A DNA stretch of 61,964 bases, counting the filler, from Perkinsus olseni (Eukaryota): assembly GCA_013115125.1 (NCBI GenBank). It is 11 parts of 11 records of this genome, joined end to end, with 100 filler letters (N's around TTAATTAATTAA, not from the genome) between each part and the next. Parts side by side here need not be neighbours in the genome. Positions count along the whole stretch, not along the records: positions 45,370 to 50,870 come from JABANN010001183.1; 10 more parts are not named here. The stretch is one strand, 5' to 3'. Positions 17,958 to 61,964 of this stretch are shown one piece after another (positions within the stretch are counted from its first letter, which is position 1; the number at the start of each line of letters is the position of its first letter). A model generated the notes under the pieces. It was given only the letters and a program-made list of their open reading frames with translations. It was not told where the DNA came from and did no database searches. A program made the position numbers and the translations under genes.

Positions 17958-19073
17958 CTATGAGAGGTAAGGATAGCAGATAGCTATCCTGTTCGTGTTA
18001 CCAGCGAACCCTCGCTTCAGGGAACGGGCCAAGAGTCGATAGATTGTGTCATACTCATCACATACTGCGTCATAAGCACCGCAGCCAACGTCCTCCCAAT
18101 CTGGACCTCTGCGCTTGAGAAAGTAATCACATACATGATAAGTGGACTCGCCGTTACGGAAAATAATGAGATTACTCCCGCGAATGGTACATTGGTAGGA
18201 CCCATTGCCTAGGCCACGACACAGAAGGTGATCAGACCGGAATGATGGAAAAGGCCCGCCCCGTGTCAAAGATACCCTCGTCACTCGATACCAGTTATCA
18301 TCGAGGTAGACGATATCGATGGACTGCTCTTCTGGCACTGCGAAGAGGTCCAAAAACTTCCTCCTCTCCCAGAACTTTCGTCCAAACCGTCTATCTCTGG
18401 TCTGCCTACCCCGAGACCGCTTAAACCTAGGATATGAGAAAGCATAAGACCAAGCTGGAAGTGCTTTGAGGGTCGCCGCAGACCAGTCCAGGTTGATGAA
18501 TCGGAGCTCACCGTAGGCATTCTCGCGGACGAAGGCGACGTAAGCGCAGTCCCCAACAACCAAGAGCTTCTGACTGAAGTGGCCTCCGTTGGAATATTTC
18601 GGAATGCAGTCGACCCTCCACGTCTTCAGTAGTATCATTTGCCGTAGGTCGTAGATGTTGAGCTTCACACCTTCATCATCGTCACTGATAATAGCGAGAC
18701 GGCGAGTCTTCCCGTCGTAGTGCATGCTCCTACAGCAATGTTGCATGTCGATAGTCACCGGTGTCTCCAGAGAAGAGCCCAAGAGCTCGGTCAACCACGC
18801 GTGGTCACCTGCATAGCTCGAGTCATTCAGATCGTACATCTTTCCGTCATCCACAATGAGGCAACTAGTTTCATTTGGGATTAGTATTTCTTCCTTCAGG
18901 CAATCCAGACATATAGCCGGTTTGCCTAGGAAGCTCATAACCATTGCCTTAGCATTCACCGTGATACCAGAATCGTTGCCTTTGCCCAAGCGCCGCTCCA
19001 GAGACCTACAGTACAGAGCCAACACGCGCCTGGGGTAGAGCATGGGGAGAAAACAACCTGATACGAGACTCAT
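17958..19073 (-). CDS. Lineage-specific family A protein, copy 1 (intronless, beta-strand-rich, possibly a propeller)
   Basis: 371-aa ORF and clear paralog of 20786-21928. Confidence 0.75.
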   Translation of the reverse strand: MSLVSGCFLPMLYPRRVLALYCRSLERRLGKGNDSGITVNAKAMVMSFLGKPAICLDCLKEEILIPNETSCLIVDDGKMYDLNDSSYAGDHAWLTELLGSSLETPVTIDMQHCCRSMHYDGKTRRLAIISDDDEGVKLNIYDLRQMILLKTWRVDCIPKYSNGGHFSQKLLVVGDCAYVAFVRENAYGELRFINLDWSAATLKALPAWSYAFSYPRFKRSRGRQTRDRRFGRKFWERRKFLDLFAVPEEQSIDIVYLDDNWYRVTRVSLTRGGPFPSFRSDHLLCRGLGNGSYQCTIRGSNLIIFRNGESTYHVCDYFLKRRGPDWEDVGCGAYDAVCDEYDTIYRLLARSLKRGFAGNTNRIAICYPYLS

Positions 19074-19378
19074 CTCGGTATCAAGCTAAGTCTGCCCAGC
19101 GACGCTGCACGTGGGTCCAGCGTCGAATATCAGTAGCGACTTGCATTTCCGCTCTCGCTATGACTAAAGTTCTCGAAGTGGTGTAACGTATATTTTTCCA
19201 CGGCGAGGCCACGACACTGCTATTCTTGAACCAACGAAAGCATTTAAGATCTTCGACGTGGTCACAACTAAAACGCAACAGTCTCAGAGCTCAGAGAGTC
19301 TCTGCCTCATAACTGAAACATTCGGTAGCCCCTCCTTTAGGGCGTTAAGAGGGGTCACAATGAAAATCGTTAAGAGTG

Positions 19379-20560
19379 TCATGCCTGCCCTAGGAATCCG
19401 AGCCTGAGCTTACATAGCTTCGCAACTTTGTCATCAAGCTGTATCACAAAAAGGACCCCACGACTGTCCACGGCCACATCACCCCATGGCCTGAAACTGA
19501 CCCTCATCGGAGAACTCTTAGGCATACCCCAGTGATCGGCCAACAAGTACTTCCGCTCTCTCCCACGGGCAGCACCAAACTCCGTTCGATCTGTTATTGG
19601 TGGATAGTACTCGACGAGAAACAGCTTGCTTCCTCCGATAGGCTGGGGTTCGGCGAAATCCAGAAACCCGGTAACACGTTCTGCAGTTTGAGCAACTTGT
19701 TTGGTATCATGGGTGAAGAAGGCTTGCGACCGTGGGTGGGATATCCTTTCTAACCGCAGTAACATGCAGGCACCATCCAGTACGTACGCAACTTCCACCG
19801 CGATTTCATCAGATGCTTTGTTCTCGCACAGAGCAGGAAAAACACTCCCGATGATACACTGAGTGCTCTCGCGAACCCATATCGATCTGAGGTGAACCGC
19901 GTCCACTCCCTGCTCCAGTACAGTCACGAGGATCTCAGAAACCTGGATATAACCACGTCCGATTATACCGAAGAAGACATAGTCTCCAACGGCCGCCATC
20001 CCTTTTAATGTCGCGCTAGTAGTTTGAACGCTAAGAAGGCCGAGCGTGTACCACTCGCCCGCAGGTCTCATTCGTTGGAGATCGTATACCAAAATCTTGC
20101 TGTCCCATCGGTCCCAATCACGACCTTTCCCAAGAAGTATGACAAGCCGATCGCCCGAGCCATCATGGTGTACCAGTTGAAGATGCGTAGTCTTGGTTGC
20201 GATCACATGAGGGTCAGACAATGAAGGCAGGGTGCTGAGTACAAGATTTTCCTCCTCCTCGAAGACACCTCTGAGCACGCCCTCGTGGAAAAAGATAAAC
20301 ACCGGTTTTCTAGATAGCTCAACTTCCTCCGAGCAGAAGGCCAGCGAGTTGGAGACATCATCTAGGAAGGCTGTGATCTCCATCAGGACGTCGGCAACCA
20401 AGTCGCAGGACGCATGCTCCCTCCACATGATGGATACATACTGGCACCGCATGGCCACCATAGTGCGCAGAGGAGGTACGCTGACATGCATGTGGAGGAG
20501 AGACCAATGCAACCTGATAGTGGCGGTGGGCCACTTCGGGTGGCCACAATCCAGGAGCAT
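19379..20560 (-). CDS. Lineage-specific family B protein, copy 1; true start uncertain
   Basis: 393-aa ORF whose C-terminus (GDVAVDSRGVL...KLCKLRLGFL) is paralogous to 22168-22759. Confidence 0.7.
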   Translation of the reverse strand: MLLDCGHPKWPTATIRLHWSLLHMHVSVPPLRTMVAMRCQYVSIMWREHASCDLVADVLMEITAFLDDVSNSLAFCSEEVELSRKPVFIFFHEGVLRGVFEEEENLVLSTLPSLSDPHVIATKTTHLQLVHHDGSGDRLVILLGKGRDWDRWDSKILVYDLQRMRPAGEWYTLGLLSVQTTSATLKGMAAVGDYVFFGIIGRGYIQVSEILVTVLEQGVDAVHLRSIWVRESTQCIIGSVFPALCENKASDEIAVEVAYVLDGACMLLRLERISHPRSQAFFTHDTKQVAQTAERVTGFLDFAEPQPIGGSKLFLVEYYPPITDRTEFGAARGRERKYLLADHWGMPKSSPMRVSFRPWGDVAVDSRGVLFVIQLDDKVAKLCKLRLGFLGQA

Positions 20561-20785
20561 TGCGGATATGACGCACTGCGGTTGAGTTCAAGGCAAGGAG
20601 GGGCGGACGAGGGCGAAACGTTTAGCCTTTATCGATAAAACTTGAACTCGACACGCAACGAGCCTTTTGAGCACCACATGTTCCGTTCCTTGGTGTAACA
20701 CTATCATCAAAGGACCGCAGCCGTGTGCGTGAAAGAAAAAACCAGTCACTCGTTTAGAACGGCTTCATCATATTCCCCACCTGGT

Positions 20786-21928
20786 TTATGAAAAGTATGG
20801 ATAGTAGATAGCTATCCGATTCCCAATAGTATGCAACCGATGACCCGGGAGACGGCGCGAGTGTCGATAGATCTTGTCACACCCATCACATGTTGCACCA
20901 TACTCGTAGCAATCATAATCCTCCCAATCTGGACCTCTACGTCTAAGAAGATAGGTACACACATGATAACTGGACCGGGTCCCGATACATACATTGATCT
21001 CAGTCCGGTTACTAGACTCGCCGCTACGGAAAATAATGAGATTACTCCCGCGAATGGTACAGTGATAGGACCCATTCCCTAGGCCACGGCACAGAAGGTG
21101 ATCTAAACGGAACGAAGGGAATGGCCCGCCGCGGATCTGAGATACCCTTGTCACTCGGTAGGAGTTATCATCGAGGTAGACGATATCGATTGACCGCTTT
21201 TCTGGGACTGCGAAGATGTCCAAAAACTTTCGCCTCTCCCAGAACTCGTGCCGGACCCTCTTACTCCGAGCCAATTTATCCCTAGACCGACGGTCTTGGG
21301 GATACGAGAAAGCATAGGACCAAGCTGGGAGCGCTTTGAGGATCGCCGCAGACTTGTCCAGGTTGATAAATCGGAGCTCACCGTAGGCATTCTCCCGGAC
21401 GAAGGCGACGTAAGCGCAGTCCCCAACGACCAAGAGCTTCTGACTGAAGTGGCCTTCGTCGGAATATTTTGGAATGCAGTCGACCCTCCACGTCTTCAGT
21501 AGTATCATTTGCCGTAGGTCGTAGATGTTGAGCTTCACACCTTCATCATCATCACTGATGATAGCAAGCCGGCGAGTCTTCCCGTCATAGTGCATACTCC
21601 TCCAAGCATGAGGCATTTCAATTTTCACGGGTGGCTCCAGAGTAGGGACCAAGAGTCCCGTCAAGCACGTCAAACGCGCACGATCACGTGCATAGCTTGT
21701 GTCCTCTAGACCGTACAGCTTGCCGTCATCGAAAATGAGGTAGCTAGTATCAGTCGGGATCAGTACTTCTTCCTTGGGGCAATCCAGACCTATAACCGGC
21801 ACGCCCAGGAAGCTCACGACCATCTGCTTAACAGGTACCACAGCATCCAACTCGCCCCATCTATCCCATCGCCGCTCTAGAGATTGACAGTACAGAGCCA
21901 ATACCCGGTCGGGATACAACATGTGCAA
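20786..21928 (-). CDS. Lineage-specific family A protein, copy 2
   Basis: 380-aa ORF sharing long identical blocks with 17958-19073 (HYDGKTRRLAIISDDDEGVKLNIYDLRQM...). Confidence 0.75.
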   Translation of the reverse strand: MHMLYPDRVLALYCQSLERRWDRWGELDAVVPVKQMVVSFLGVPVIGLDCPKEEVLIPTDTSYLIFDDGKLYGLEDTSYARDRARLTCLTGLLVPTLEPPVKIEMPHAWRSMHYDGKTRRLAIISDDDEGVKLNIYDLRQMILLKTWRVDCIPKYSDEGHFSQKLLVVGDCAYVAFVRENAYGELRFINLDKSAAILKALPAWSYAFSYPQDRRSRDKLARSKRVRHEFWERRKFLDIFAVPEKRSIDIVYLDDNSYRVTRVSQIRGGPFPSFRLDHLLCRGLGNGSYHCTIRGSNLIIFRSGESSNRTEINVCIGTRSSYHVCTYLLRRRGPDWEDYDCYEYGATCDGCDKIYRHSRRLPGHRLHTIGNRIAIYYPYFS

Positions 21929-22167
21929 GAAACAACGCTTATTGGGAAGCGACGTAGCGACTTTGATTGAGAACTGCGGAAGACAGGCAGCCAGAGCGTC
22001 TAACTGACAGGGCTAGGTAAAATGTCACTCATAAAGTATCAAGCTCGTCGCGTAGTTGGACTCATGATGTAGCACATGGATGAGTTCACCCCCATGGCGG
22101 GCAAAGTGAGCGAAAGCTCTTCGGAATTACCTTAGCTCAACAAGCTCCCGTCATCACTATGAAAAGG

Positions 22168-35204: not shown

Positions 35205-35489
35205 AAGCTAGCCATCTGGAATAAGATGCGCTACCGTTGCGCCACAGGGCCAGGCTATGCAAAGCCGGGCAGGCTGCGAGGCGAGTCGCTTGGTTAATCC
35301 CTATCAGTGGACCACAAGCTAGCTAGGTATATGACCCCGGCCCGATTCGAACGGACAGCCTTCTGATCNNNNNNNNNNNNNNNNNNNNNNNNNNNNNNNN
35401 NNNNNNNNNNNNNNNNNNNNNNNNNNNNNNNNNNNNNNNNNNNNNNNNNNNNNNNNNNNNNNCACTGGACCACAAGCTAGCTAGGTATA

Positions 35490-41730: not shown

Positions 41731-42064
41731 GCTGTGTTCCCATTTGTTCCCGAGTCTCTTAGTTTGAGTGACACTCTCGATTAGAATGGTAGCTGAAAAT
41801 GAGAGGTTAAAATTCGGTAAAATGTCGTGCTGGGATTGCTACATGTGCTGCACATGCACATGATGTGCACCTGGCTTGCCAAAGGAGTCAATGCTCGCGC
41901 ACTTTGTTTAGGTAAGCTATCGACGTATCACACAGAGCGGTTCGCACAGAGCTCGTGAGACGAGCAGATGGAGATGAACTCGAGTTTGTTCTCTCGTTCC
42001 CGGTTGCTCTCAGTGTGGGTTGAGTTTCCCAGTTCGCTCGTGTGGGACGCAGTCGCAGTGAGAA

Positions 42065-44728
42065 ATGGTGGGAGGGAAGCAAATGCGACAGGATCACAGC
42101 AGCATCAGGCTCTCCGCTATTGTCGTGACTCAGCGTTATTATCGTGTTTCCCTACTGGCACACCCGAAAATGTCGCAAGAACACCGTATCAGCGGCAACG
42201 ACAACATCATCGAACTAACGGAATTCTACGACGCCAACCCTACGCGATCTGTAGCCGAAGACTGTGCGGTTTCGGCTCCGGAAAACCAGCTGAGCAGTGC
42301 GCCCAACGCCAAAGGTGGGTACTATCTCTTGTATCAGGGTTATTCGTTCACTCGCAACGACACCAACCACAACCCTGCTAATACTCACTACTGGCGATGC
42401 ACTGCTTTCACCAGCCCAAGCAAGTGTAGAGCCCGGCTTACTACCCTAGGAGACTACCGGCTTGGTGTAGATCATTTGATCGTGAAACCTCGACCTAAAC
42501 CAGTTCCTCATAGCTGCTCTCCATCTGCCAGCAAGAGGCAGTTGCTGTTCGAAATGTGCAAAGTGATAATGACTTCGCCTAGAGAGTCGAAAATCATGGA
42601 TGCGTACTGGAAGGTTACTAAGGAGGCTCGTGAGGAGGACATCTTGCAACTGCCAAGGAGGGAGACTACCTATGAGTGGCTCAGGCGTTTCAAGAAAGCT
42701 CATTTTGGCATTCCTGCTTCTCCCAAGCACAGAACGGGGTTCGACATTCCAGACGAGTATCAGTACGTCGTTTTTGGAGACCAGACGGACCCCGAGTCTG
42801 TGAAGTACCACACGCTGCTGTGGGACAGTGGAGCTGATGATGGGCACCGTATTATTTGCTTTTACAATCCGTGGGCTTTGGAGCACATATATGACAAGCC
42901 CGGGAGAGCTCATTTAGCCATGGATGGCACCTATAAAGTCTGTCCGAGGAATTGGGTGCAGCAGTACACAATTCTATGCATGTATCCTGGTGGCACTTTC
43001 TACCCGGTGTTCTACGCATTGCTATCAGACCACACGAAGGCTAGCTATTGTAGATTGCTTACTCGTGTCCGCGGTGTATTGCCTGACTATGCGCAGGTTG
43101 CTACCGTGGTGCTAGACTTTGAATCTGGCTCTGTACCAGCTGTACATGAGATTTTCCCAGAAGCTCGGATATCATTGTGCTATTTTCATCTATCGCAGAA
43201 CGTGTTCGAGCATCTGGCGAAGCTCATTCCGGCGATGACTCCTGTTGAGCGTCGAAGCGAGCCTCAAGTCCGGGTGGCCTTCCGTGCGTACTACAATGTG
43301 ATGGCGCTGCCATTCTTGCCTGAAGCACTCGTTTATCAAGGGTTTCTCGAAGCTGTCGGTGATCTCCCTCCGCAAGTTCGGCGGGACTTCAGCAACTACT
43401 TCATACGAACTTACCTTCAGGGTACCGAGCGCGCTCAGTTCAGTCCAGATAGGTGGAACATGCGTGAACGAGCACTCAGCGGCTTTCCAAGAACGAATAA
43501 TTCTCAAGAAGGCTTCCACCACAAATGGAATACTCTGTTCACCGCGGATGTTCCGCCGATTATCTGGACATGGATCGACGTCGTTCTGGAGAATATGAGG
43601 GAAGTTCGCAGCGACCTCATATTGCGTGTTCGAGGAGATCGTCGCAAACGCCGCCCGTATGACCGGATGAAGGATATCCAGCTGAGAGCCCTTTGCAATG
43701 AAGAAGTGGTTCAGACGGCTCTACCTGAGTGGTTCCGAAAAGCTCGTAGAATCACCAGGAAGCTTACTAAGAACGGTGTTTATCCGGAGCATTCTAGACG
43801 GCGACGCACTAATGCTTCTCCCAATGAGGATACTAGACCCTCTCAGTCCTATACGTCTTCATCAAGTTCTACGGACGGTGCCGCGGATACTGATGTCGCT
43901 CTTCCAAGCCAGAGGTCGGAATCCTCCTACCTGCCGTTAACTCAAGCGGAATTCTTCAGTACCCTTGCATCTAGTGGTATTATCTCCCAGGAGGTGCTCG
44001 ACGCGGTTGAAGATCGTATTCCACCAGCCACAGTCACTTCCAGTGGAGCTGTCCCGAATGCGGACTCATCAGATGGGAACTCTGCAGCAGATGACGCCTT
44101 ATGGGTCCAAGTAGGAGACCGCGGGGCTACAAATTACGACCGGAGGAGTTTGACAACGGAAGGTGGGACTGTTAACGTCGGCATCATCGACTTGTGGATG
44201 TTCCTGCTTTACCGTCGGTTTTCGGAGAGTATGGAGGAGCCCCAAGAGACGGCTATGGCAACTTGGGTGTTTAGAAACGGCACACCAAGACAGTTCGCCC
44301 CGGCGACGTCTACCCTGTCGACTGTACTTCAACCGCTCATCAATGGAGCTGGCCATTTTGTGGGTGCCATTCGTCACCAAGGACAGCTTTTCTACGTCGA
44401 CAGCCTCAACCTTCCCATGAACGAGACGGTCCGACAGAGTCTGAACGAGCTGTTCGGACCGAACAGAATGTACATAAGGCTTGGCGTGCAGAGGCAGGGT
44501 GCCGACGGCAATCTGTGCGGGCTCCACGTATTGGCGCACATGACGGAGCTGATGCTTTCGGAATCCACTCCATCTCAAGTGGCTGCCACGAACTTCGATG
44601 AGGGTATGATGCGTGAGCATGTATTTCGCTGTCTGAGAGATCACGAGGCTCGTCGCTTCCCAAAACTCGATATAGATTCTAGGCTTATACTACCTGAACA
44701 CTTTCCGAACTCTGTTGAAGTCGTGTAG
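42065..44728 (+). mobile_element. Mutator-like (MULE, Phantom-type) transposase, 887 aa: FLYWCH finger, DDE domain and C-terminal Ulp1/C48-like protease
   Basis: LYQGYSF...YWRC...CRARL...HSC; MDGTYKVCP, LDFE, CYFH and RTNNSQEGFH; GHFV...YVDSL...QRQGADGNLCGLHV. Terminal inverted repeats not identified. Confidence 0.9.
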
Positions 44729-45369: not shown

Positions 45370-45490
45370 TAGTAGTCGTGGTCGTCGTGGTCGTAGTGGT
45401 CGTAGTGGTCGTAGTGGTTGTAGTAGTCGTGGTCGTCGTGGTCGTAGTGGTCGTCGTGGTTGTAGTAGTCGTGGTCGTCGTGGTCGTAGT
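45370..45490. repeat. (GTN)n / (ACN)n trinucleotide tract on the 3' side of the LINE
   Basis: Continuous GTA/GTC/GTG/GTT triplets. Confidence 0.95.
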
Positions 45491-45596
45491 TTTTGTTTTG
45501 TTTTGTTAGTGAGGCTCTAGTGCGATATTTCCTGCCAATCGGCAGTATGACCGCTCGCCTCGCACCCGTGGGTGCTAGGTGATCAGATGCTCCCTC

Positions 45597-48500
45597 TCAG
45601 TGCCTCCGGGACTGGCCCCCCCCCGAGGACCAGTCCGGTGCCACGAGACGTAGGAACTTGATCATCTTCCAGAAGCCGTCTCCACAGATACTCTCTCGAA
45701 TCAGCCTCATCCCTTGCACTGTGGGTGTGTCCCTGGACCATCTCCCATCGGGGATCCGCCTCCGGAAGGCGGCCCACCTCGCCTTTCTCATTTCTCGAGA
45801 CTCGCACCAGCACCAATGAACCAATGTCTCCTTGTGTTTGCCACAATGCCTACAGGTCATTGGCTGGTTTCCGTACTCCTTGCTTCTTCCCCTATAGCCC
45901 CTGGTATTGCTGTGGTAGCTCAGCAGCTCCCAAACCTTCCTCCTGGGGCCTCTCCTAGCCCTTAAACACCTCCTAGTTATGGTATTCAGTTGCTCCCGGC
46001 CATACGTAAGGCCAATCCTATTGCACGCTAAGCCTCTGGCCTTTTTCTCCCATCTCTCTTCCAGCTCCACCTCCGCTCTTTGTCGGATCTCCCTCGCAGT
46101 GAAGTCGCAGGGGGTTGGCACTGAGCACATGCGTACGTTCCCTGCCTCTCCCCTCCGGCCAATGGCTGCCGCTAGATCTGAGGCTTCATTCCCTGGATCC
46201 CCTGCATGCCCTCGCGTCCATGCAATGCATACCCTTATGCTGGCCGCCGTCAGCTCTTCCACGAGAGATCTTATCGACCTTATCAGCTCCGTCTCCTTGC
46301 TACCACCTATCGATTGGATGGCAGACCTCGAATCCAAGCAGATCTTGATGGCCTTTACTCCGTCTCCCCTTTCTCCTCCTTGATCAACTACTTCCTTGCT
46401 CCACTGTAGGCCTTTCAAAACTCCCAATTGCTCCGCCTGGCATATGTTTGCCGGACCGTCTATTTTGAACGGTCTGAAATCCTCTAGCCAGCCCGATGCG
46501 TCGTACTTGTTATGTATGACCTTAACGACAGCCGAGCCCACCTCCATCCTGGTTTTGCTCAACGCTAGCAGTGAGCCATCACTATAGTAAGTGAGAGTGC
46601 CGGGGGTTCCCTCATCGCGTTCGATCCCTTCTGGTGCCAGCCGAAGATCCCTCGGTGGGTCCCAATCCCTCCCAATTTGGCGCTCTTTCGGGCCTTCAGG
46701 GTTCGAGACCCCCCATTTCTTCAGAAGTTTGGCGATCCAACCCGGACATTCCGTGTCGTTGGCGTGCAGCCAGTATTTGGCTGTCCTACGTCTGGCTTCC
46801 CACCATATGGGGCGGGCTACAGTGGATGCCACTTTCGCCATGAGCTCCGTGGGAGTTGCCCTAACACATCCCATCAACATTCGTCCAAGACAGGCCTCCA
46901 GTCTTGTACATTTATCCTGAAACCATTTAAGATCCGAAGCTGGTGCCCATATCTCCACCGAGTAGAGCAGGGTTGATACCACCGATTGCTTCCACGTCTT
47001 CAGGAGTACCTCAGGGCTTGCTCCCCAGTCGGCCCCCGCCAGTCTTCTGCACCTCGCCACTAACGCTCCCGCCTTTGTCAGGGCCCTGCTGGCGTGGTTT
47101 CTCCAGTTTTTGGAAATCCATACCCCCAGCCATTTCATTTCCCTCTTCAGGTGTACCACTTCCTCTGGTCGTTCCCTGCTGAGCTCCTCTCGGAGAAGCT
47201 CCCCCGTATCGTCCGTTAAGCACAGTATCTCGTGCTTTTCTGGATCGGTTGCCATGTCAGCCCTTTTCGCCCACGACTCGACCGAATCGGTCGACTGTGA
47301 GATCCCTCTGGACAGAGTTACTACATCCAGTGCCCGGATTATCGCCAGGGCGTCGTCAGCGAATATCCTCGGCTCCACTGTGAGAACCAGTCTCCCTCCT
47401 GCGCGAACCTCGTGGCGTAAGGATTTCTCCAGACTATACGTCCCTATGCTGAAGATACATGGTGAGAGGGATCCCCCCTGCGTGATGCCCCTCGTTCTCA
47501 CTCTGCTGGACCCGTCCAGGACCACCTTGTTATCGGCCAGGTAGCTCTCTATGTACTCTCCCCAGGCCGCTGATGATGTTGCCTTGATCACCGACTCCTT
47601 CAAGTGGGCATGTGACACGTGGTCGAAAGCCGATTTCAGATCCCAGGTGCATAGGGCCGTCTTGAGCCCATCCTTGTCCTTGTTATGTACTACTCTGGCC
47701 ACGGCTTCCAGTGCCGTGGAGCAGCTGCGAGACCTCGTGAACCCATGGACTCCTCTTGGCGGTGTCGTCCTAGCGGATATGCGGTTCTTCAGTAGAACCT
47801 CTATCGCTTTAGCCGTTGTTGCCGTGAGGGATACTGGCCGGACTGCCCGAGGGCCTACCCCTCGTCCTTTATCCAATAACACCCAGTCTGCCCTTTTAAA
47901 GGGCATTGGGTGGTGCCCCCAATCTAGGCAGGACTCGACAAGCTTCGTGAACTGGATCCTCCAGCGGCATTCCGGATGCTCCATAGCTCTAACCACATGC
48001 TCGTAGGACGCCCCATCCCACCCCGGAGCTTTATTGCGTTTTCCCTTGATTTGCTTAAGCATCCTTTCCAGTTCCGCGGCTTGAATCTCCCCTCCCAATG
48101 GTCCTAGAAGGGATGGGCATCTAGTCCTGACCACTGTGGTGCTCGGCCTGTTGTCCTCTCCTATATAGTAGGAGAGTACAGCTTCCTTGTCGTATTCGGT
48201 CCTGGGCGTGTGCTTGTACTTGAGGAATTTGCTCGCCTCTCGTTCCGTGATTTCCGACATCCCCCTTTTGAAGCCCTGCCCCTTCGCTCTTGCGATTGCC
48301 TTGTTGTAGTCCTTGCGGGCTTGTTTCGCCTCCTCTCTGGCGCCCGCATCCGGCGCTCCCGTCCGGTGAGCCACCCTTAGGGATCTCTGTGCCTTCTTCA
48401 GTTTCTTCCGAAGCTGGTCCAACTCCCTAGTCCACCAGCTGGCCGTTGGGCGAGTTTTGCCCGCGGCTTTATTCTTCGGCGTCGAGACGACTAGGGCTTT

Positions 48501-49424
48501 TCTAAGAGAGCTCATCAGCTTCTCCGCCCAGTCATCTATATCCTTGGTGGAAGACACCTTGGGTGTCAGAATTGGCACTTTCCCAATGCTCTTATCAAAT
48601 ACCTCCCAGTTGGTTTTCCTGGGGTCCCTGCGAGACTTGGCCTTCCGTTGCTGGCCCATTGTCCTGAAGGTAGCGAGGATTCCTCGATGGTCCCCTATTG
48701 TGTCCGTCATCTCTGTTTTCACCCAGTGCAATCCCCTCGAGGCTACCATGTCAATGTAGCTCGGCGACCTCGTTGGGTCATAGGGGATGAAAGATGGTCC
48801 CGCTCCCACATCATTAACCGACAGTAGGGAATTCTCCAAGAGGAAGAATTCCAGGTCCTGGCCTCGCCTCCACTTCCCATCCGGGTCACTTCCTGTGAAG
48901 GTGTCGGGCGACCAAAGGCCCGAGCTCGCGTTCGTGTCCCCTCCCAGTATGAGGATTTCCTCTAGATCATCCGCGACCGCCTGGTCTAGACCCCTTATAG
49001 TTTCCGCCATGGGAATCAGTTTGTCAGCGTAGAGGCTAACAAACTTGGACCTCCAATTGTCCGTGCTGGCATGCACCACTGCTATGTCCTCTGGCTGTTG
49101 CTGGACTTGGGTGATCCTGCAATGGCGAGGTATCAAGATTGCTGCTCTACATAACTCTCTGGCCCCTGGGTTCGGAGCTCTCGGGTTTCTGGCCGATCTA
49201 ATTACCGTGAAACCATTATAGGTATCCTGGGTCATGAGCTGTCGTGGGCACTCTTGTAGTAGAATGACCACGTCCTTCAATCCTTTGTCTACGATATTAC
49301 ACTTGAACCAGTCCTCTAAAACCCCCATACTCTTACCTACATTGATCGATGCCACTGTAAGGTAAGTGTGTCCGGCAGCCTCTCTGGGGTTAGTAACTGG
49401 GCTGCCGTCGATTGGGGTGATCAT
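45597..49424 (-). CDS. LINE ORF2, 1275 aa, intact
   Basis: APE motifs (SINV, LLQE, GGDTNA, YIDM, GDH); RT (KAPGWDG, RPVSL, DLKSAFD, ITQGGSLSP, FADD); RNase H (YSDGS, AEQLG, LDS, GHAG..GNEASD); C-terminal CRHC..ETLVHWCWC. Confidence 0.95.
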   Translation of the reverse strand: MITPIDGSPVTNPREAAGHTYLTVASINVGKSMGVLEDWFKCNIVDKGLKDVVILLQECPRQLMTQDTYNGFTVIRSARNPRAPNPGARELCRAAILIPRHCRITQVQQQPEDIAVVHASTDNWRSKFVSLYADKLIPMAETIRGLDQAVADDLEEILILGGDTNASSGLWSPDTFTGSDPDGKWRRGQDLEFFLLENSLLSVNDVGAGPSFIPYDPTRSPSYIDMVASRGLHWVKTEMTDTIGDHRGILATFRTMGQQRKAKSRRDPRKTNWEVFDKSIGKVPILTPKVSSTKDIDDWAEKLMSSLRKALVVSTPKNKAAGKTRPTASWWTRELDQLRKKLKKAQRSLRVAHRTGAPDAGAREEAKQARKDYNKAIARAKGQGFKRGMSEITEREASKFLKYKHTPRTEYDKEAVLSYYIGEDNRPSTTVVRTRCPSLLGPLGGEIQAAELERMLKQIKGKRNKAPGWDGASYEHVVRAMEHPECRWRIQFTKLVESCLDWGHHPMPFKRADWVLLDKGRGVGPRAVRPVSLTATTAKAIEVLLKNRISARTTPPRGVHGFTRSRSCSTALEAVARVVHNKDKDGLKTALCTWDLKSAFDHVSHAHLKESVIKATSSAAWGEYIESYLADNKVVLDGSSRVRTRGITQGGSLSPCIFSIGTYSLEKSLRHEVRAGGRLVLTVEPRIFADDALAIIRALDVVTLSRGISQSTDSVESWAKRADMATDPEKHEILCLTDDTGELLREELSRERPEEVVHLKREMKWLGVWISKNWRNHASRALTKAGALVARCRRLAGADWGASPEVLLKTWKQSVVSTLLYSVEIWAPASDLKWFQDKCTRLEACLGRMLMGCVRATPTELMAKVASTVARPIWWEARRRTAKYWLHANDTECPGWIAKLLKKWGVSNPEGPKERQIGRDWDPPRDLRLAPEGIERDEGTPGTLTYYSDGSLLALSKTRMEVGSAVVKVIHNKYDASGWLEDFRPFKIDGPANICQAEQLGVLKGLQWSKEVVDQGGERGDGVKAIKICLDSRSAIQSIGGSKETELIRSIRSLVEELTAASIRVCIAWTRGHAGDPGNEASDLAAAIGRRGEAGNVRMCSVPTPCDFTAREIRQRAEVELEERWEKKARGLACNRIGLTYGREQLNTITRRCLRARRGPRRKVWELLSYHSNTRGYRGRSKEYGNQPMTCRHCGKHKETLVHWCWCESREMRKARWAAFRRRIPDGRWSRDTPTVQGMRLIRESICGDGFWKMIKFLRLVAPDWSSGGGQSRRH

Positions 49425-50619
49425 TGTGAGCGTCCGGCCTCTCTCTGGCCGGATGGAAACCCATTATTGCTCAGTCCCATCTTCCAGTCGTCACCCAGGC
49501 CGCCGAGGGGGGTTGCGTTCACTGGTGAAGAACCCACTGTACCCTGACTTTCCACCACAGAGCAGTACTCCGAAGATGCATCTGCTTCTGATGGCGCAGT
49601 GTCCGCCCAGTCGAATCTTGCTGCAGGTAGCGCACCCACTGCAGGGGGTGGGGATTCCATCCTGAGTGTAGCGCCCCTGCGGTTGGCCCCTACGGTATGT
49701 CCTCTGGGTTCTGGTCGTTCCTTCCTGCAATTCCCCTCCAAGGCTGAATGCCCCGTAGCGTTACATATCGAACATACACGGTGAATGCCCCTGAAGCCTC
49801 TCACCTCCGGGCATTCCCGAACCTGATGCTTCTTGCCACAGTTGATACACTGTGGGTTTGCCGTACACTGATCTCCCACCACCGGGTGTAGCTTGCCGCA
49901 GCGGTAACACAGTGGGTTAGGGGACATTTTTGATATCCTGTAGGAATCCTACAGTAGGATCTTAGTCCGATAAAGACCTTACCCACCTTCAACACCCCTT
50001 GAAGATCCGTCCTAGGACCTTTAATTATATAGGCCCCGCTCCTCGTCCTGCGGCTAACTCCTACTCTGGAGAGGTCTAGCCCGTTTTTGGACAACAGTTG
50101 TTGCTCCAATTCGTCCTTGCCCAGCTGGAGGTCTTGTGGTGTTGCGATCCTCAAGACCAACTCATCCTTGGCCACGAATTTTGTGACGAGCGCTCCCCTC
50201 GTCTGCTGCTGGATAGCTGCCCTAATTTTAGTGCTTTCCCTATCATCTGGCACCAGCACTCCTAAGCCTCCCCTCGTAGGGAAAGTGTTCAGTACCCTGG
50301 TTTTGCTCAAAATAGGGCTGATTATCTCCCTCAAACCCTCTAGTTCCACTTCCGTCAGTCTCATCCACGAGCCGTTCTCCAGGATTTTGTCTGTGGTAGT
50401 GACTGCAATGACTCCAGGGTTCGGTTTCCCCTGTGCCGCTGCTTTACCCGTTGTGACCCTATGCCTCGGTGAGGCTTGTAAGCCACCCCCGGTGCCTTTA
50501 GATCTGCCGCGTTTGGCTACTGTGACCCAACTATTGTCCTGATTCGACGGAGATGCTGACGCAGGTCGGCTTCCTCTTCCCACGGGGGGTTGAGAAGATT
50601 TAGCGCGAGCTGGGTTGAT
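49421..50619 (-). pseudogene. LINE ORF1 (gag-like, three CCHC knuckles), frameshifted by a 14-nt insertion at 49940-49953
   Basis: CYRCGKLH..C, CINCGKKH..C and CSICNATGH..C. Removing the 14 nt fuses ORFs 49801-50583 and 49421-49927. Confidence 0.85.
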
Positions 50620-50870
50620 CGTCGTAGTGGTCGTAGTAGTTGTAGTAGTCGTGGTCGTGGTCGTAGTAGTCGTGGTCGTCGAAGTTGTAGTAGTCGTGGT
50701 CGTCGTAGTCGTGGTCGTGGTAGTCGTGGTCGTAGTAGTCGTCGTCGTTGTTGTAGTTGTGGTCGTGGTCGTCGTAGTTGTGGTACTCGAGGTCGTAGTA
50801 GTTGTGGTCGTTGTGGAGGTCGTAGTAGTTGTAGTAGTTGTGGTCGTTGTGGAGGTGGTAGTAGTTGTGG
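50620..50870. repeat. (GTN)n / (ACN)n tract on the 5' side of the LINE; the minus strand encodes poly-Thr with occasional Ser
   Basis: About 250 nt of ACN codons with interspersed TCG/TCC on the minus strand. Confidence 0.93.

Positions 50871-50970: not shown

Positions 50971-51041
<71 letters not shown>
50971..51041. repeat. (AAC)n microsatellite
   Basis: Pure repeat at the contig start. Confidence 0.97.
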
Positions 51042-51237
51042 AATAAGCATGAGTGAGAGAGAACAACAGAGAAGAAAACCGATGTCCAACCCTAGACCCA
51101 AACTACGAATAACTCAACATTGTTGCTGCTTGGTATGATAACTTACTATAATCAGAGAACAACACAGGCAGACGCCCAATTAGCAAAAAAAAACTAACCT
51201 GAACGATGTCAGAGGATATCAATTCGCGCTTGAAGAA

Positions 51238-52443
51238 TTACGCGTTACGCACAGACTCATCGATAGAATCGATAACGTATTGAATGTTATGCTTGTTCAA
51301 GCCGGCCATAGAGATACGACCATTCTTGAGCATGTAGATGTGATGCTTGTTGATCATACGCTCACACTGAGGGACAGTGAGACCAGTGAAGGAGAACATA
51401 CCAATCTGCTTCTTGATATGCTCCCAGGTACCGGGAGTACCCTTGGCGGTCAAACCGTCGGAAAGGAGGATACGCATCTGGCCAATCCTACCACTAATGG
51501 CCGTCAACTCAGCCCTCCACTCCTTCTCGAGAGCAGGATCCTCAAGAATAGTCTTGACAATTAAACCACCGTGGATCGGAGGAGAGGAGTACATAGGCCT
51601 AACGATGAGCTTCAGCTGACTGAGAGCGCGAGCAGCCAGATCAGCGCTCTTAGTCACAAAGTGACACATGCCAACACGCTCACCATAGAGACCGAAGTTC
51701 TTGGCGAAACTCTGAGCGACGAAGAACTCCATACCGGACTGGTAGAAAAGACGGAGAGCATAAGCATCCCTGTCCAAATCACCAGAAGCATAACCCTGAT
51801 AAGCGCAATCAAGAAGAGGAATGAGATGCCTCTCCTGAAGGAGCTTCTGGATCTCCTGCCACTCCTCGTGAGTAAAGTCCATACCGGTGGGGTTGTGAGC
51901 AACGGCATGAAGGAGGACCAAGGATCCAGCGGGAGCCTCAGAAAGGCAATCCATGCAACCGCTGAAGTCTAAGCAACGGTTCTGGTTGTCCCAGTACGGA
52001 TACCTCTCAATCTGCAAACCCGCACCGGCACTGCCGAAGACCTTCAGATGATTACCCCACGTGGGATCCGAAATATAAATAGTCGGCTTGTTGAGATACC
52101 TCGCACAGAACTCTCCAATGAGACGAAGAGCACCGGTACCAGAAATGGACTGGCAACTGGCAATCTTATCGTTAGACTCGCCAAAGAGAAGACGCTGAGT
52201 AAGAGGCTTGAGGGCCGGGAAACCATCGATGGGAGCGTACTCCTTATCGACCTTCATATCAGCCGCCAACTGCTGGTCGACCTTACGGACGACATCGAGG
52301 ACCTTGGGGTTGCCATTCTCATCACGGTAGGCACCAACACCAAGATTGACCTTCTGGGGGAAAGTGTCAGCCTTGTAGGCGGTAGTGGTACCGAGAATAG
52401 GGTCCGGAGGGGCCAAATCGCAACACTCGAAGATGGAACTCAT
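51238..52443 (-). CDS. Aspartate aminotransferase, copy 1, intronless
   Basis: APPDPILG, NLGVGAYRD, HNPTG, DCAYQGYASG, PLP-lysine motif SFAKNFGLYGER and GRISMAG. Confidence 0.97.
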   Translation of the reverse strand: MSSIFECCDLAPPDPILGTTTAYKADTFPQKVNLGVGAYRDENGNPKVLDVVRKVDQQLAADMKVDKEYAPIDGFPALKPLTQRLLFGESNDKIASCQSISGTGALRLIGEFCARYLNKPTIYISDPTWGNHLKVFGSAGAGLQIERYPYWDNQNRCLDFSGCMDCLSEAPAGSLVLLHAVAHNPTGMDFTHEEWQEIQKLLQERHLIPLLDCAYQGYASGDLDRDAYALRLFYQSGMEFFVAQSFAKNFGLYGERVGMCHFVTKSADLAARALSQLKLIVRPMYSSPPIHGGLIVKTILEDPALEKEWRAELTAISGRIGQMRILLSDGLTAKGTPGTWEHIKKQIGMFSFTGLTVPQCERMINKHHIYMLKNGRISMAGLNKHNIQYVIDSIDESVRNA

Positions 52444-53230
52444 GAATAACTTGAGAAATTAAAAAACTGAGAAACAGAAGAACAGTTACTCGAGGTCGAC
52501 CTGTCCGATAAACCTCAACTGAAGTATTCCGACAATACTTCAACGACCGGCATGAATGTTCCCTAGCGCCAAGAAGCGGAGATCCTAGCAAAGCTTAGCT
52601 AGCAAGCACACAGTCTGAAGCTTGAGAGAGCAAGAAGAAAGACTCATGACGGTGGCAGTGGATTATGGCATCGTATATCCCTCCTCGGGAACATACAACT
52701 ATGGGATATTTTATATGCAATCTAATCACGACAAGGCCGCGGAGTTTCTATCATACAAAAACTCCTTTTCCACACGCAGAGAAGTAATCAACACATTTGA
52801 AGCCTACATGACCATCCGACATCGGTACGAGTGCAACAGTCTCGAGAATGCTACCGGAGACATCGCAACGCCCTTGGGACATTTCTCTACAATGTGAGAA
52901 CAGGAAATGCTCACATTTGATAAAGATGGATTGCCGCTTCTTAAGGGAACAGGACTTATCTCAAAACAACGCCTATGCCGTTGAGCATGCATACTCACAT
53001 GACGAGCTGATAGGTCATCGATGACTAGTTCCCGACTCCGACCGCTGAGCAAAATCATCCCCAACCCTCTTGTGGCAACTAGACACAACACCGATATCAT
53101 GTACACAGCAAAAAATGACCGAAGTGATCCAGATCCTTCCACTGAGTAGCTTGAACAGCTTATTGAAAATGATATTTTGCAAACTCCTGCTTTAGGCTAG
53201 CAGCTGTCATAGTTCGCAGAAAACGAACGC

Positions 53231-56775: not shown

Positions 56776-58770
56776 CTAGATGGGGCAGTAAGTCTTAGGG
56801 GCGTCATGACCAACATGGAGATGTACCACCGGATCAGCAGGGAGTGAACCAATGATCTCGTGAAGAGTCGTGCGAGATGAAGCACAAGCGACACTGCTGT
56901 GGATGATCTTGAGAGCATCCGACCCGTCAGAACTCTCCGTGACAGCTGGGGAGTTGCTGGTTTGGGCGATAGATGCCTTGCTGTCGTTGGTGATAACCTT
57001 CCGACAAACACCACTTAGATGGCCGTTGCGCTTACATCTACCACACTTGAAGCTCTTGTGAGGACACTTGTGCTCGGGACCACGGAGTCGACCACACCTG
57101 CCACAACGCTCACTCTGCTTGAAGATGTGACGATGACGACATGAGTTGGCCTGGTGAGATGGTAGACCACACCGTAGGCAGTTCTCGGGCGGGATACCGA
57201 GCTCCTTGGTAGCTAGAGCACAGATGGTGATGATCTGAGAGTGGTCGATCTTCTTACCACCGCCTTTGCTTGGACCTTGGGGACGGGACTGACCGGACAT
57301 CGATGCCGTGAGATCGTCGGGCAGAGAGGTACCGTTGTCGAGGAAGGCAAAGAGAGCGAGCTTGTAGGCTTCATAGCCAAGCTGGCACTGAGGGTCGATG
57401 AGGCACCTTCCCAGAACTTCACGGGTACCACGAAGACCGTCGGCGAACTTAGCGGTGATGTCACGGTTGGATAGGCCATGAGTAGAGTAGAGTGCAGTGT
57501 AAATGTGTGCACAGTGCTCGAATCTCGTGGCGTACTGACGGACAAGCTCGTTGGGGAGTTGGGACACTTTGTCCCAGGCAGCGGAGACACTGCGCAACTC
57601 GAGCTTGGTCAGGTAGGTGTGGTCCAAGGCGTAGATGATGATGGTGTGACCGAACCTCTCAATGTCATCAGGGTGGACACTTCGCTCGATAGTGCCCTTG
57701 ACGAGCTCTGGCAGGCACTCCAGAACGGCCTCGGCGGCTACTTGTCGAGAACAAGGAACACGCTCGATAGCATCCGCGAAGGCAACACGCCACTTGGCGT
57801 AGCCACCGTTGTGATTGAGCTCGAACTTGAGACGGTCGTGGACAGGGTGACCGATGAAGACACGAGCCTGCTTGAGGGCCTGGTCGATGGGGCGCTTCGC
57901 AGCATCAGCTTTGACCTGCAGCGGACGGATTCCTGTAGGGCACGTATAGGTCTGGTACCCTCCGAAGGCTGAGCATACAGGCGTGGGGTTGAGCTGAGTG
58001 TCGACGTGAGAAGCGTCACCGACAGACAAGCTGGCGTGAGAGACCGGCTTTGGTTGTGGTTGTTGATGTTGATGTAAGGCAGCTGTAGCATTGGAGTGGA
58101 TGTGAGTGGCATCGGCTTGGACATCTGTGGTGGCCGTCAGAACACCGGGCACGATGTTGACGTTGGCTCGAGATGTTTGTGCCGTGCAGCTTATACGACG
58201 GTACTCCTTGACAGCAGCAACTGTTTCACGCTTCAACTGCGCTTGAGTAGGGATGGCAACCGTCCACCGGATCTCGAAGTGGTCCGATGCGGCGAGGTTG
58301 ATGATGACTCTCGCGAGTTGCCTCGACACTGCCGTGACCCATGGAGGAAGATCACAGCTTATGAGATGGTCGTCGGCCAGTCGGCAGAGATCAGCCGCCG
58401 CCGAGTCGAAGACCGAGGTTAATGTCGTCGTAACAACCACCACCGGGGATCTTGAGTCACCGTCTGATTGATCAGTTCTCGCATCTCCGCTTTCCGCGAG
58501 CGAGTCTGACGAACCCGATCCTGAAGCTGATTCCACTGCCGGAGCCGTGATTGGGCCGGATGTGGACTTTGCTATGACAGGGACAAGGGCATCAGAGGTG
58601 TTTCTCAAGGCCATCTGGAAGTCGACAGCAGGACCGGCTTCGATGTCCAGAAAGCACTTCGCCAGGAGCCTTTCGTTCTTGAAGATAGTTTCTCGGCATG
58701 CAGACCCCAACTTGTTAAGGAACCGCTGGTCGAAGGCCTCCGGACTAGAACTCGATGCAGTGATGGACAT
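56776..58770 (-). mobile_element. LTR-retrotransposon-type gag-like ORF (about 664 aa) with no recognisable pol
   Basis: Capsid/major-homology-region-like QLPNELVRQYATRFE and KFADGL, plus knuckles CLRCGLPSHQANSC, CGRCG..H.C and CGRCKRNGHLSGVC. Confidence 0.8.
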
Positions 58771-58936
58771 AATGATGCAATAGATTAGCAGTAGTGGTGG
58801 AGTATAGACATACTTAATAGATATTATCATCAGACTGAACGGGGAATATCCGAAACGGGTCCGTTTCGGGCGGAATCAGAATCTTGCGCTGTTAATGGCG
58901 CACGCCGAGAGACTGAAAGGCTGTAGAGTCTTATCA

Positions 58937-61814: not shown

Positions 61815-61894
61815 AGCTGCGTCTTAGTTCGCATCACTATCCTTGCTATTATTATTAATACTGTTGTTATTACGCTTCTACTCCTTATTGTTTA

Positions 61895-61895
61895 G

Positions 61896-61963
<68 letters not shown>

Positions 61964-61964
61964 G
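61895..61964. repeat. (GTT)n microsatellite
   Basis: Pure repeat at the window end. Confidence 0.97.

What the first reader, a model, noticed from the sequence alone, without database searches (positions are those of the whole stretch)
45370..50870. LINE embedded in (ACN)n poly-threonine repeats: candidate sequence-specific retrotransposon with a new target
Seen: the element is bordered directly on both sides by the same class of GTN/ACN trinucleotide tract. A possible 8-nt target duplication GTCGTAGT lies at 45483-45490 and 50621-50628, though this is weak evidence in low-complexity DNA. Known: R1-clade APE elements target simple repeats (TRAS/SART telomeric repeats, Waldo and Mino microsatellites). 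Inference: this family may target Thr-coding repeats of mucin-like genes. ORF2 is intact, so the family may be recently active.
Basis: partly seen in the sequence, partly recalled or inferred. Interest (0 to 1): 0.85.

Follow-up and report, generated by a model that had tools for sequence, protein, structure and literature searches.

The report
Truncated LINE inside threonine-codon repeat
A damaged copy of a jumping gene (a LINE) of the mollusc parasite Perkinsus olseni sits inside a threonine-codon repeat on its own small contig, but nothing yet shows that the family aims at such repeats.

Summary
The span 45370-50870 is one whole 5501-bp unplaced contig. The window is 11 small contigs joined by artificial N44-TTAATTAATTAA-N44 linkers. 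The contig holds one APE+RT+RNase H LINE of Perkinsus olseni on the minus strand. Degenerate (ACN)n tracts lie on both sides, on the same strand and in the same codon phase.

Both junctions are real. Independently assembled contigs of three samples cross each by about 30 nt.

This copy is not intact:
- ORF2 is open.
- ORF1 carries 14 extra nt that split it. Other natural copies lack them.
- ORF1 has no start codon.
- The copy seems to lack about 302 nt of 5' sequence that a 99%-identical variant in run X7 has, and that sequence is not ACN.

The 8-nt duplication is present but weak. The same-phase chance match is 5%.

The family looks recently active. ORF2 differences show an excess of synonymous changes, and the apparent copy number differs greatly between samples.

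Targeting of (ACN)n rests on this one insertion. No other copy's flanks could be read with the tools at hand.

Verdict: an ordinary truncated LINE insertion in an abundant repeat class. Specificity is unproven, at about 0.15.

The parts
45370..45490 (-). 3' flank: degenerate (ACN)n tract. All 40 codons are ACN, with a higher-order period of 42 nt at 92% match. It runs to the contig end.
45483..45490 (.). Candidate target-site duplication, 3' copy (GTCGTAGT on the + strand)
   Evidence: The chance of a same-phase 8-mer match is 5.2%.
45491..45507 (-). 3' tail of the element: (CAAAA)3 on the sense strand, (TTTTG)3.4 on the + strand. The contig of run X7 ends exactly at 45491.
45491..45596 (-). 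3' untranslated region, including the tail
45597..49424 (-). ORF2 with APE endonuclease, reverse transcriptase (FADD), RNase H and a C-terminal Cys/His motif. It runs from the ATG at 49424 to the stop at 45597-45599 and is open and intact.
49421..49424 (-). ATGA overlap: the ORF1 stop TGA (49423-49421) overlaps the ORF2 start ATG (49424-49422)
   Evidence: read
49421..49939 (-). C-terminal part of ORF1, with three Cys/His knuckles. In this copy it lies in another frame than the N-terminal part.
49940..49953 (-). 14 extra nt that break ORF1. They form a foldback plus a direct repeat of TCCTAC. They are absent from the X7 contig and from the natural model P0021.
49954..50620 (-). N-terminal part of ORF1 as far as it is present. 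The conserved domain is shared with P0010 and P0013. There is no ATG in the first 87 codons, and the frame stays open into the flank.
50621..50628 (.). Candidate target-site duplication, 5' copy. Positions 50621-50624 also match the longer X7 variant, a possible 4-nt microhomology.
50625..50870 (-). 5' flank: degenerate (ACN)n tract. 76 of 81 codons are ACN and 5 are Ser codons. It is in frame with ORF1, has period 45/24/63 at 76-77% match, and runs to the contig end.

Best explanation
One copy of a Perkinsus olseni LINE (non-LTR retrotransposon) was inserted by ordinary target-primed reverse transcription into an existing degenerate (ACN)n tract. The tract has the pattern of poly-threonine coding sequence.

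The element has two reading frames. ORF1 has a conserved domain followed by three Cys/His knuckles. ORF2 has an APE endonuclease, a reverse transcriptase, RNase H and a C-terminal Cys/His motif.

The copy is defective. It is most likely 5'-truncated by about 300 nt, which removes the ORF1 start. A 14-nt insertion also frameshifts ORF1. ORF2 is still open.

Such tracts are abundant in this genome and break short-read assemblies. That is why the copy ended up as a lone 5.5-kb contig with tract at both ends.

The family as a whole appears to have been active recently.

Shown: the anatomy, both junctions, the ORF1 break and the synonymous excess. Inferred: the 5' truncation, the TPRT details and the copy-number difference between samples.
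For: Identity:
- ORF2 is 100% identical to P. olseni models (P0001; P0020 lies on a 5501-bp contig).
- The APE, RT and RNase H catalytic columns are invariant against 6 relatives.
- The APE model (pLDDT 73) is closest to the TRAS1 and R1Bm endonucleases, then to L1.

Junctions:
- Contigs from X1, X3 and X4 cover 45462-50653 with 0 differences.

Insertion into a tract:
- Both flanks are ACN, on the same strand and in the same phase.
- An 8-nt duplication is present.
- The tail is (CAAAA)3.

Truncation:
- The X7 contig (5422 nt, 52 substitutions) continues 302 nt past 50624 with sequence whose 30 shown letters are not ACN.
- There is no ATG in 87 open codons.
- The relative P0010 has 239 residues before the conserved ORF1 domain, against 70 here.

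ORF1 break:
- X7 lacks 14 nt at 49940.
- P0021 and P. marinus P0013 read straight through this point.

Tract abundance:
- Records laid were 18,584 of 180,965 in X1, 3,051 of 108,196 in X3, 3,300 of 97,878 in X4 and 5,803 of 565,387 in X7.
- Only one long contig per run lay on the element body.

Family activity:
- 18 synonymous and 21 nonsynonymous changes among the 39 ORF2 differences shown. The neutral expectation is 9.7 +/- 2.6 synonymous. 0.2% of 5000 simulations reach 18.
- X7 depth is 433.8 against 3.8-13.8 for its listed tract contigs. In X1, X3 and X4 the element (83.5, 75.1, 67) is no deeper than the deepest listed tract contigs (114.9, 96.5, 79.5).
- Models of the X7-type variant lie on three contigs of 36-68 kb.
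Against: - A random insertion would land in an ACN tract only rarely. In the other 10 contigs of the window (about 55 kb) there are only three short degenerate runs of 18-24 nt. My rough estimate puts tract look-alikes at 0.5-3% of assembled letters.
- The sense orientation and the in-frame phase with ORF1 are further coincidences, of about 1/2 and 1/3.
- Only 30 of the 302 extra nt in X7 were shown, so it is not proven that they belong to the element and are not a different flank.
- The depth baseline of X7 is inferred from short tract contigs, not from known single-copy genes.
- The three contigs that carry the variant could be haplotype copies of one locus in a polyploid genome.
- The two tracts have different higher-order periods, 42 against 45/24/63. 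That is not what a cut through a uniform array would give.
Confidence: 0.6

Rival explanations
1. The family really prefers, or is specific for, (ACN)n tracts. Its endonuclease nicks the GTN strand, so new copies accumulate in Thr-codon repeats in sense orientation, as Waldo, Mino, Kibi, Koshi and Dong do in their microsatellites.
For: - This copy has ACN on both sides, in the same strand and phase, in frame with ORF1 and with an 8-nt duplication.
- Degenerate ACN tracts are rare in the other 55 kb of the window.
- The APE model is marginally closest to the two solved endonucleases of sequence-specific R1-clade elements: TRAS1 with TM 0.80 and R1Bm with 0.78, against L1 with 0.72.
- Two other assemblies also hold the element on contigs of about element size, 5493 and 5624 bp.
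- APE-type LINEs that target microsatellites are known (passages of PMC3812793).
Against: - There is only one observed insertion.
- The 3' tail is (CAAAA)3 and has no ACN unit.
- The X7 contig ends at the last element base, so not even the first flank base is shared among its copies. A tail of variable length could explain this too.
- Models of that variant lie on contigs of 36-68 kb, whereas the ACN-flanked copy breaks the assembly at once.
- The preference of the structure search for R1-clade endonucleases over L1 is within one order of E-value.
Confidence: 0.17
2. The (ACN)n tract belongs to the element, as a poly-Thr N-terminus of ORF1. Alternatively the contig is one unit of a head-to-tail array, so that the two tracts are one and the same spacer.
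For: - The tract is in frame with ORF1, and ORF1 has no ATG of its own for 87 codons.
- Tract at both contig ends is the signature of a tandem unit.
- Some short contigs join 50785 or 50769 back to 45447 or 45420.
Against: - The 99%-identical X7 variant has non-ACN sequence directly beyond 50624. A 5' truncation falling exactly at the tract border by chance is unlikely.
- All three frames of an ACN tract are open, so an open frame there means nothing.
- The 'goes back' joints rest on only 32-43 nt of low-complexity match. One of them has depth 82.8 in X1 and 25.1 in X4 and is absent in X3.
- The element's depth in X1, X3 and X4 is no higher than that of other listed contigs.
- The two tracts differ in period and are only about 82% alike.
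Confidence: 0.08
3. Assembly artefact: the tracts were joined to the element wrongly, or the contig is a collapsed chimera.
For: - It is a small unplaced contig ending in low-complexity DNA on both sides.
- The runs that reproduce it may be its own source data.
Against: - Separate k-mer assemblies of four runs agree on the element.
- Three of them (samples S1, S2 and S3, from two studies) cross both junctions by about 30 nt without a single difference.
Confidence: 0.04

Closest known systems
Microsatellite-targeting APE-type LINEs: Waldo (ACAY), Mino (AC), Kibi (TC), Koshi (TTC), Dong (TAA). Source: passages of PMC3812793.
   Same: An APE-type LINE found inside a short-period repeat, in one orientation relative to the repeat.
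   Different: In those families many copies share one target and one junction. Here only one insertion is seen. The 'repeat' is a degenerate codon tract (AC fixed, third base free), not a true microsatellite. The tail is (CAAAA)3.
TRAS1 and R1Bm, sequence-specific R1-clade LINEs whose endonuclease structures are solved (1wdu, 2ei9)
   Same: They are the best structural matches of the modelled APE domain, with TM 0.80 and 0.78 and 20-21% identity. The ORF1 with Cys/His knuckles plus an ORF2 layout is also similar (layout recalled).
   Different: Sequence similarity is not significant (TRAS1 E = 0.26). L1 endonuclease matches nearly as well (TM 0.72). No RT phylogeny was made, so clade membership is open.
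I-group LINE clades with RNase H: Ingi, I, Nimb, Loa, R1, Tad1, Loner, Outcast. Source: passage of PMC4640811.
   Same: The ORF2 order is APE-RT-RNase H. The D-E-D-H-D columns are invariant against relatives that carry PF00075.
   Different: The clade within the group was not determined. The nearest relatives outside Perkinsus are only 19-23% identical.
Ordinary 5'-truncated L1-type insertions (general knowledge, recalled)
   Same: Truncated 5' end, short target duplication, possible 4-nt microhomology at the 5' junction, A-rich tail.
   Different: The nick site implied here (AGT^GG on the GTN strand) is not A/T-rich.

Membership tests
APE-type non-LTR retrotransposon (LINE) | ORF2 with an N-terminal APE-like endonuclease followed by a reverse transcriptase | tested here: met
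   Exo_endo_phos_2 scores 33.8 bits and RVT_1 80.6 bits, both above their cut-offs. Catalytic columns N41, D176, N178, D258, H259, D703 and D704 are invariant. The fold matches LINE endonucleases.
APE-type non-LTR retrotransposon (LINE) | Marks of target-primed reverse transcription: a 3' tail, a target-site duplication, frequent 5' truncation | tested here: inconclusive
   The (CAAAA)3 tail is present. The 8-nt duplication is present, but its chance is 5% in this low-complexity DNA. Truncation is inferred from the longer X7 variant and from P0010.
I group of LINE clades | RNase H domain downstream of RT | tested here: met
   The Pfam RNase_H match is below its cut-off (20.4 bits against 25.8, E 6.4e-4). 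However D962, E1011, D1044, H1086 and D1096 are invariant against relatives that carry PF00075.
I group of LINE clades | Placement by RT phylogeny | not tested
   No labelled reference RT sequences could be obtained with the tools.
R1 clade | Placement by RT phylogeny with R1, TRAS, SART, Waldo and Mino | not tested
   There is only an indirect lead: the APE model is closest to the TRAS1 and R1Bm endonucleases, with L1 close behind.
Sequence-specific (repeat-targeting) LINE | Most copies lie in the same target sequence, with the same junction position | not testable with these tools
   No genome is held and there is no other copy in the window. The protein databases give no flanks. The single metagenome locus is a 23% relative.
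Sequence-specific (repeat-targeting) LINE | Copies share the flank immediately 3' of the element | tested here: inconclusive
   The high-depth contig of run X7 stops exactly at 45491, the last element base. Its copies therefore differ at the very next base. Either different flanks or a tail of variable length would explain this.

The most novel reading that the evidence does not exclude
This Perkinsus LINE family integrates preferentially into degenerate Thr-codon (ACN)n tracts, in sense orientation. That would be a new kind of LINE target: a codon-periodic coding repeat, not an exact microsatellite or an RNA gene. Copies without a promoter or start codon of their own could then be read in frame from the host's poly-Thr gene, as the in-frame junction here would allow.
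Probability: 0.13. Interest if true: 0.65.

Novelty: new member of a known kind. Interest (0 to 1): 0.3.

Why it matters
As it stands this is a routine result: a defective LINE copy in low-complexity DNA, isolated on its own contig by assembly breaks.

Two points have modest value:
- The LINE family of Perkinsus is not described in the papers I could search. It seems to differ greatly in copy number between samples, which could serve as a strain marker and as a record of recent transposition in a polyploid parasite.
- If later tabulation shows that many copies sit in ACN tracts, it would add a new target class to the sequence-specific LINEs.

Tried and rejected
- Whole genome: none is held.
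- Other copies in the window: none. blastn of the contig against all 11 contigs gave only self and tract-to-tract matches.
- Earlier scan notes: four look-ups, nothing.
- ORF1 protein searches: no hit among proteins of 150-478 aa. Among 479-2000 aa only P0001 and P0002 were found. No model with a longer N-terminus turned up. Several models start at the same residue (DNSW...), probably an annotation effect.
- Metagenome scan: the first alignment was too diverse. The second found one locus, L001, a 23% relative that is of no use for flanks.
- RNA: no RNA holder was listed.
- 'Empty site' joints: 45482->50630 (X1, depth 4.6, side 29) is 9 nt off the expected join. 45465->50696 is 92 nt off. Both rest on low-complexity matches and were rejected as evidence.
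- 'Goes back' joints (50785->45447, 50769->45420) were considered as signs of a tandem array. They were rejected as too short (32-43 nt) and uneven between runs.
- PDB sequence search with the APE domain: TRAS1 at E = 0.26, not significant. With the whole ORF2 only R2 and group II intron RTs came up, at E about 1e-3.
- ESM Atlas: it confirmed only the domain architecture.
- Papers: no description of Perkinsus LINEs or of threonine-rich Perkinsus proteins. The P. olseni genome paper is not in the library. Supplements were not seen.
- RT phylogeny and clade assignment: not done, for lack of labelled references.
- Other large ORFs of the window: 10 were scanned and only an aminotransferase matched. 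None was a further LINE.
Full report
**What the window is.** The window has 21 runs of N. Twenty of them are pairs of 44 N around TTAATTAATTAA. Splitting at these linkers gives 11 contigs of 5633 down to 5446 bp, in falling order of size. The finding, 45370-50870, is exactly the ninth contig (5501 bp). The 'neighbours' in the window are therefore unrelated contigs. These are a MULE/FLYWCH transposase ORF at 42062-44728 and a class I/II aminotransferase at 51238-52458. Nothing is known beyond the two tracts. No genome is held for the window.

**The element.** The minus strand carries a LINE.
- ORF2 is open for 1288 codons from stop to stop, 45597-49463. Its ATG is at 49424.
- It matches Exo_endo_phos_2 and RVT_1 above their cut-offs and RNase_H below its cut-off (E 6.4e-4).
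- In an alignment with six relatives of 19-95% identity, the catalytic columns of all three domains are invariant.
- A model of the APE domain (pLDDT 73.1) is closest to the TRAS1 endonuclease (TM 0.80) and the R1Bm endonuclease (0.78), then to L1 (0.72). By sequence TRAS1 is not significant (E 0.26).
- RNase H is reported from the I group of LINE clades, R1 included (passage of PMC4640811). The architecture therefore fits that group, but I could not build a labelled RT tree.
- ORF2 is 100% identical to Perkinsus olseni models. One of them, P0020, lies on a 5501-bp contig.
- The ORF1 stop and the ORF2 start overlap as ATGA at 49421-49424 (read).
- The 3' end is (CAAAA)3.

**The flanks.**
- On the sense strand the 3' flank is 40 of 40 ACN codons.
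- The 5' flank is 76 of 81 ACN codons, and the other five are Ser codons.
- The first two codon positions are almost fixed while the third is free. That is the pattern of poly-Thr coding sequence, not of a decaying microsatellite.
- The 5' tract is in the ORF1 frame. All three frames of such a tract are open, though, so only the phase counts, with a chance of 1/3.
- The two tracts differ in higher-order period: 42 nt at 92% match against 45/24/63 nt at 76-77%.
- GTCGTAGT stands at both junctions. Two random same-phase positions of the tracts share an 8-mer 5.2% of the time.

**Are the junctions real?** Yes. Runs X1, X3 and X4 (samples S1-S3, two studies, possibly the source material) each give one contig covering 45462-50653 with no difference. 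Each contig breaks about 30 nt inside each tract, as a 31-mer assembly would.

**This copy is defective.**
- Run X7 (another sample) gives a 5422-nt contig that matches 45491-50624 with 52 substitutions and lacks 14 nt at 49940.
- By frame arithmetic, without those 14 nt the two parts of ORF1 are in one frame.
- The natural model P0021 reads straight through this point. So does the P. marinus relative P0013, which aligns across it.
- The extra 14 nt look like a small foldback and direct duplication.
- ORF1 here also has no ATG in its first 87 codons.
- The X7 contig runs on for 302 nt beyond 50624. The 30 letters shown are not ACN.
- The more distant P. olseni ORF1 relative P0010 has 239 residues before the conserved domain, against 70 here.
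- I infer that the window copy is 5'-truncated by about 300 nt, with a possible 4-nt microhomology at 50621-50624.

**The family.**
- One search lists 40 X7 differences and does not show 24 more. Of the 40 listed, 39 lie in ORF2: 18 synonymous and 21 not.
- With the same base changes placed at random, 9.7 +/- 2.6 would be synonymous. 0.2% of 5000 trials reach 18. ORF2 has therefore been under purifying selection between the variants.
- All 20 amino-acid changes of the X7 variant are present in models P0017 and P0002, 14 of 14 covered in P0016, and 9 of 9 in P0015. P0003 has 14 of 19 plus further changes.
- These models lie on three contigs of 36-68 kb and on several small ones.
- In X7 the element contig has depth 433.8, while the listed tract contigs have 3.8-13.8. 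In X1, X3 and X4 the element (83.5, 75.1, 67) is no deeper than the deepest listed tract contigs (114.9, 96.5, 79.5).
- I infer tens of copies in that sample and about one in the others. The baseline is indirect, and haplotype copies could inflate the contig count.

**Does the family target (ACN)n?** The evidence is one insertion.

For targeting:
- Tract on both sides, in one strand and phase.
- Such degenerate tracts are rare in the other 55 kb of the window: three runs of 18-24 nt.

Against targeting, or neutral:
- Tract look-alikes are very abundant in the assemblies. Records laid were 18,584 of 180,965 in X1, 3,051 of 108,196 in X3, 3,300 of 97,878 in X4 and 5,803 of 565,387 in X7, with only one long contig per run on the element body.
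- The tail has no ACN unit.
- The X7 contig stops exactly at the last element base, so its copies already differ at the next base. Different flanks or a variable tail would both explain this.
- Copies of that variant assemble into long contigs, whereas the ACN-flanked copy does not.

Known microsatellite-targeting LINEs (Waldo, Mino, Kibi, Koshi, Dong; passages of PMC3812793) are defined by many copies sharing one junction. That could not be examined here.

**Verdict.**
- The 'new target' reading is unproven. I put it at about 0.15.
- The best reading is an ordinary, truncated and frameshifted LINE copy in an abundant repeat class, from a family that was active recently.
- I found no description of Perkinsus LINEs in the searchable papers. 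Supplements and Repbase were not available.

Noticed in passing
window 1-61964: The window is not one locus. It is 11 small contigs (5633-5446 bp, sorted by size) joined by N44-TTAATTAATTAA-N44 linkers. There is also a separate 94-N gap at 35369-35462. Any finding that spans a linker is an artefact.
   Followed up: yes
window 42062-44728 (+): An open 888-codon frame with MULE transposase and FLYWCH zinc-finger matches. It looks like an intact Mutator-like transposase, on the contig before the finding.
   Followed up: partly
window 49421-49424 (-): The ORF1 stop and the ORF2 start overlap as ATGA. This suggests that ORF2 is translated by termination-reinitiation, as reported for some other LINEs (recalled).
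   Followed up: no
window 49940-49953 (-): The 14-nt insertion that breaks ORF1 consists of an inverted copy of the preceding 7 nt followed by a direct copy of TCCTAC. It looks like a small foldback or template-switch event.
   Followed up: partly
run X7 against runs X1, X3 and X4: The element's depth is about 30-100 times that of the listed tract contigs in X7, but no higher than the deepest of them in X1, X3 and X4. This suggests a large copy-number difference of this LINE between samples of one species.
   Followed up: partly
proteins P0010, P0013, P0004: Perkinsus holds at least one further LINE family. ORF1 relatives are 33-38% identical in P. olseni and P. marinus. An ORF2 52% identical comes from an unnamed Logan contig.
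   Followed up: no
window 50971-51042 and 61894-61964: Pure (AAC)n and (GTT)n microsatellites of about 70 nt lie at the ends of two other contigs. Trinucleotide repeats seem to be a general cause of assembly breaks here.
   Followed up: no
window 51238-52458 (-): An intron-less 406-codon frame with a full-length class I/II aminotransferase match (251 bits).
   Followed up: partly
window 17958-22012 (-) and 56776-58875 (-): Several long open frames (375-699 codons) have no Pfam match.
   Followed up: no
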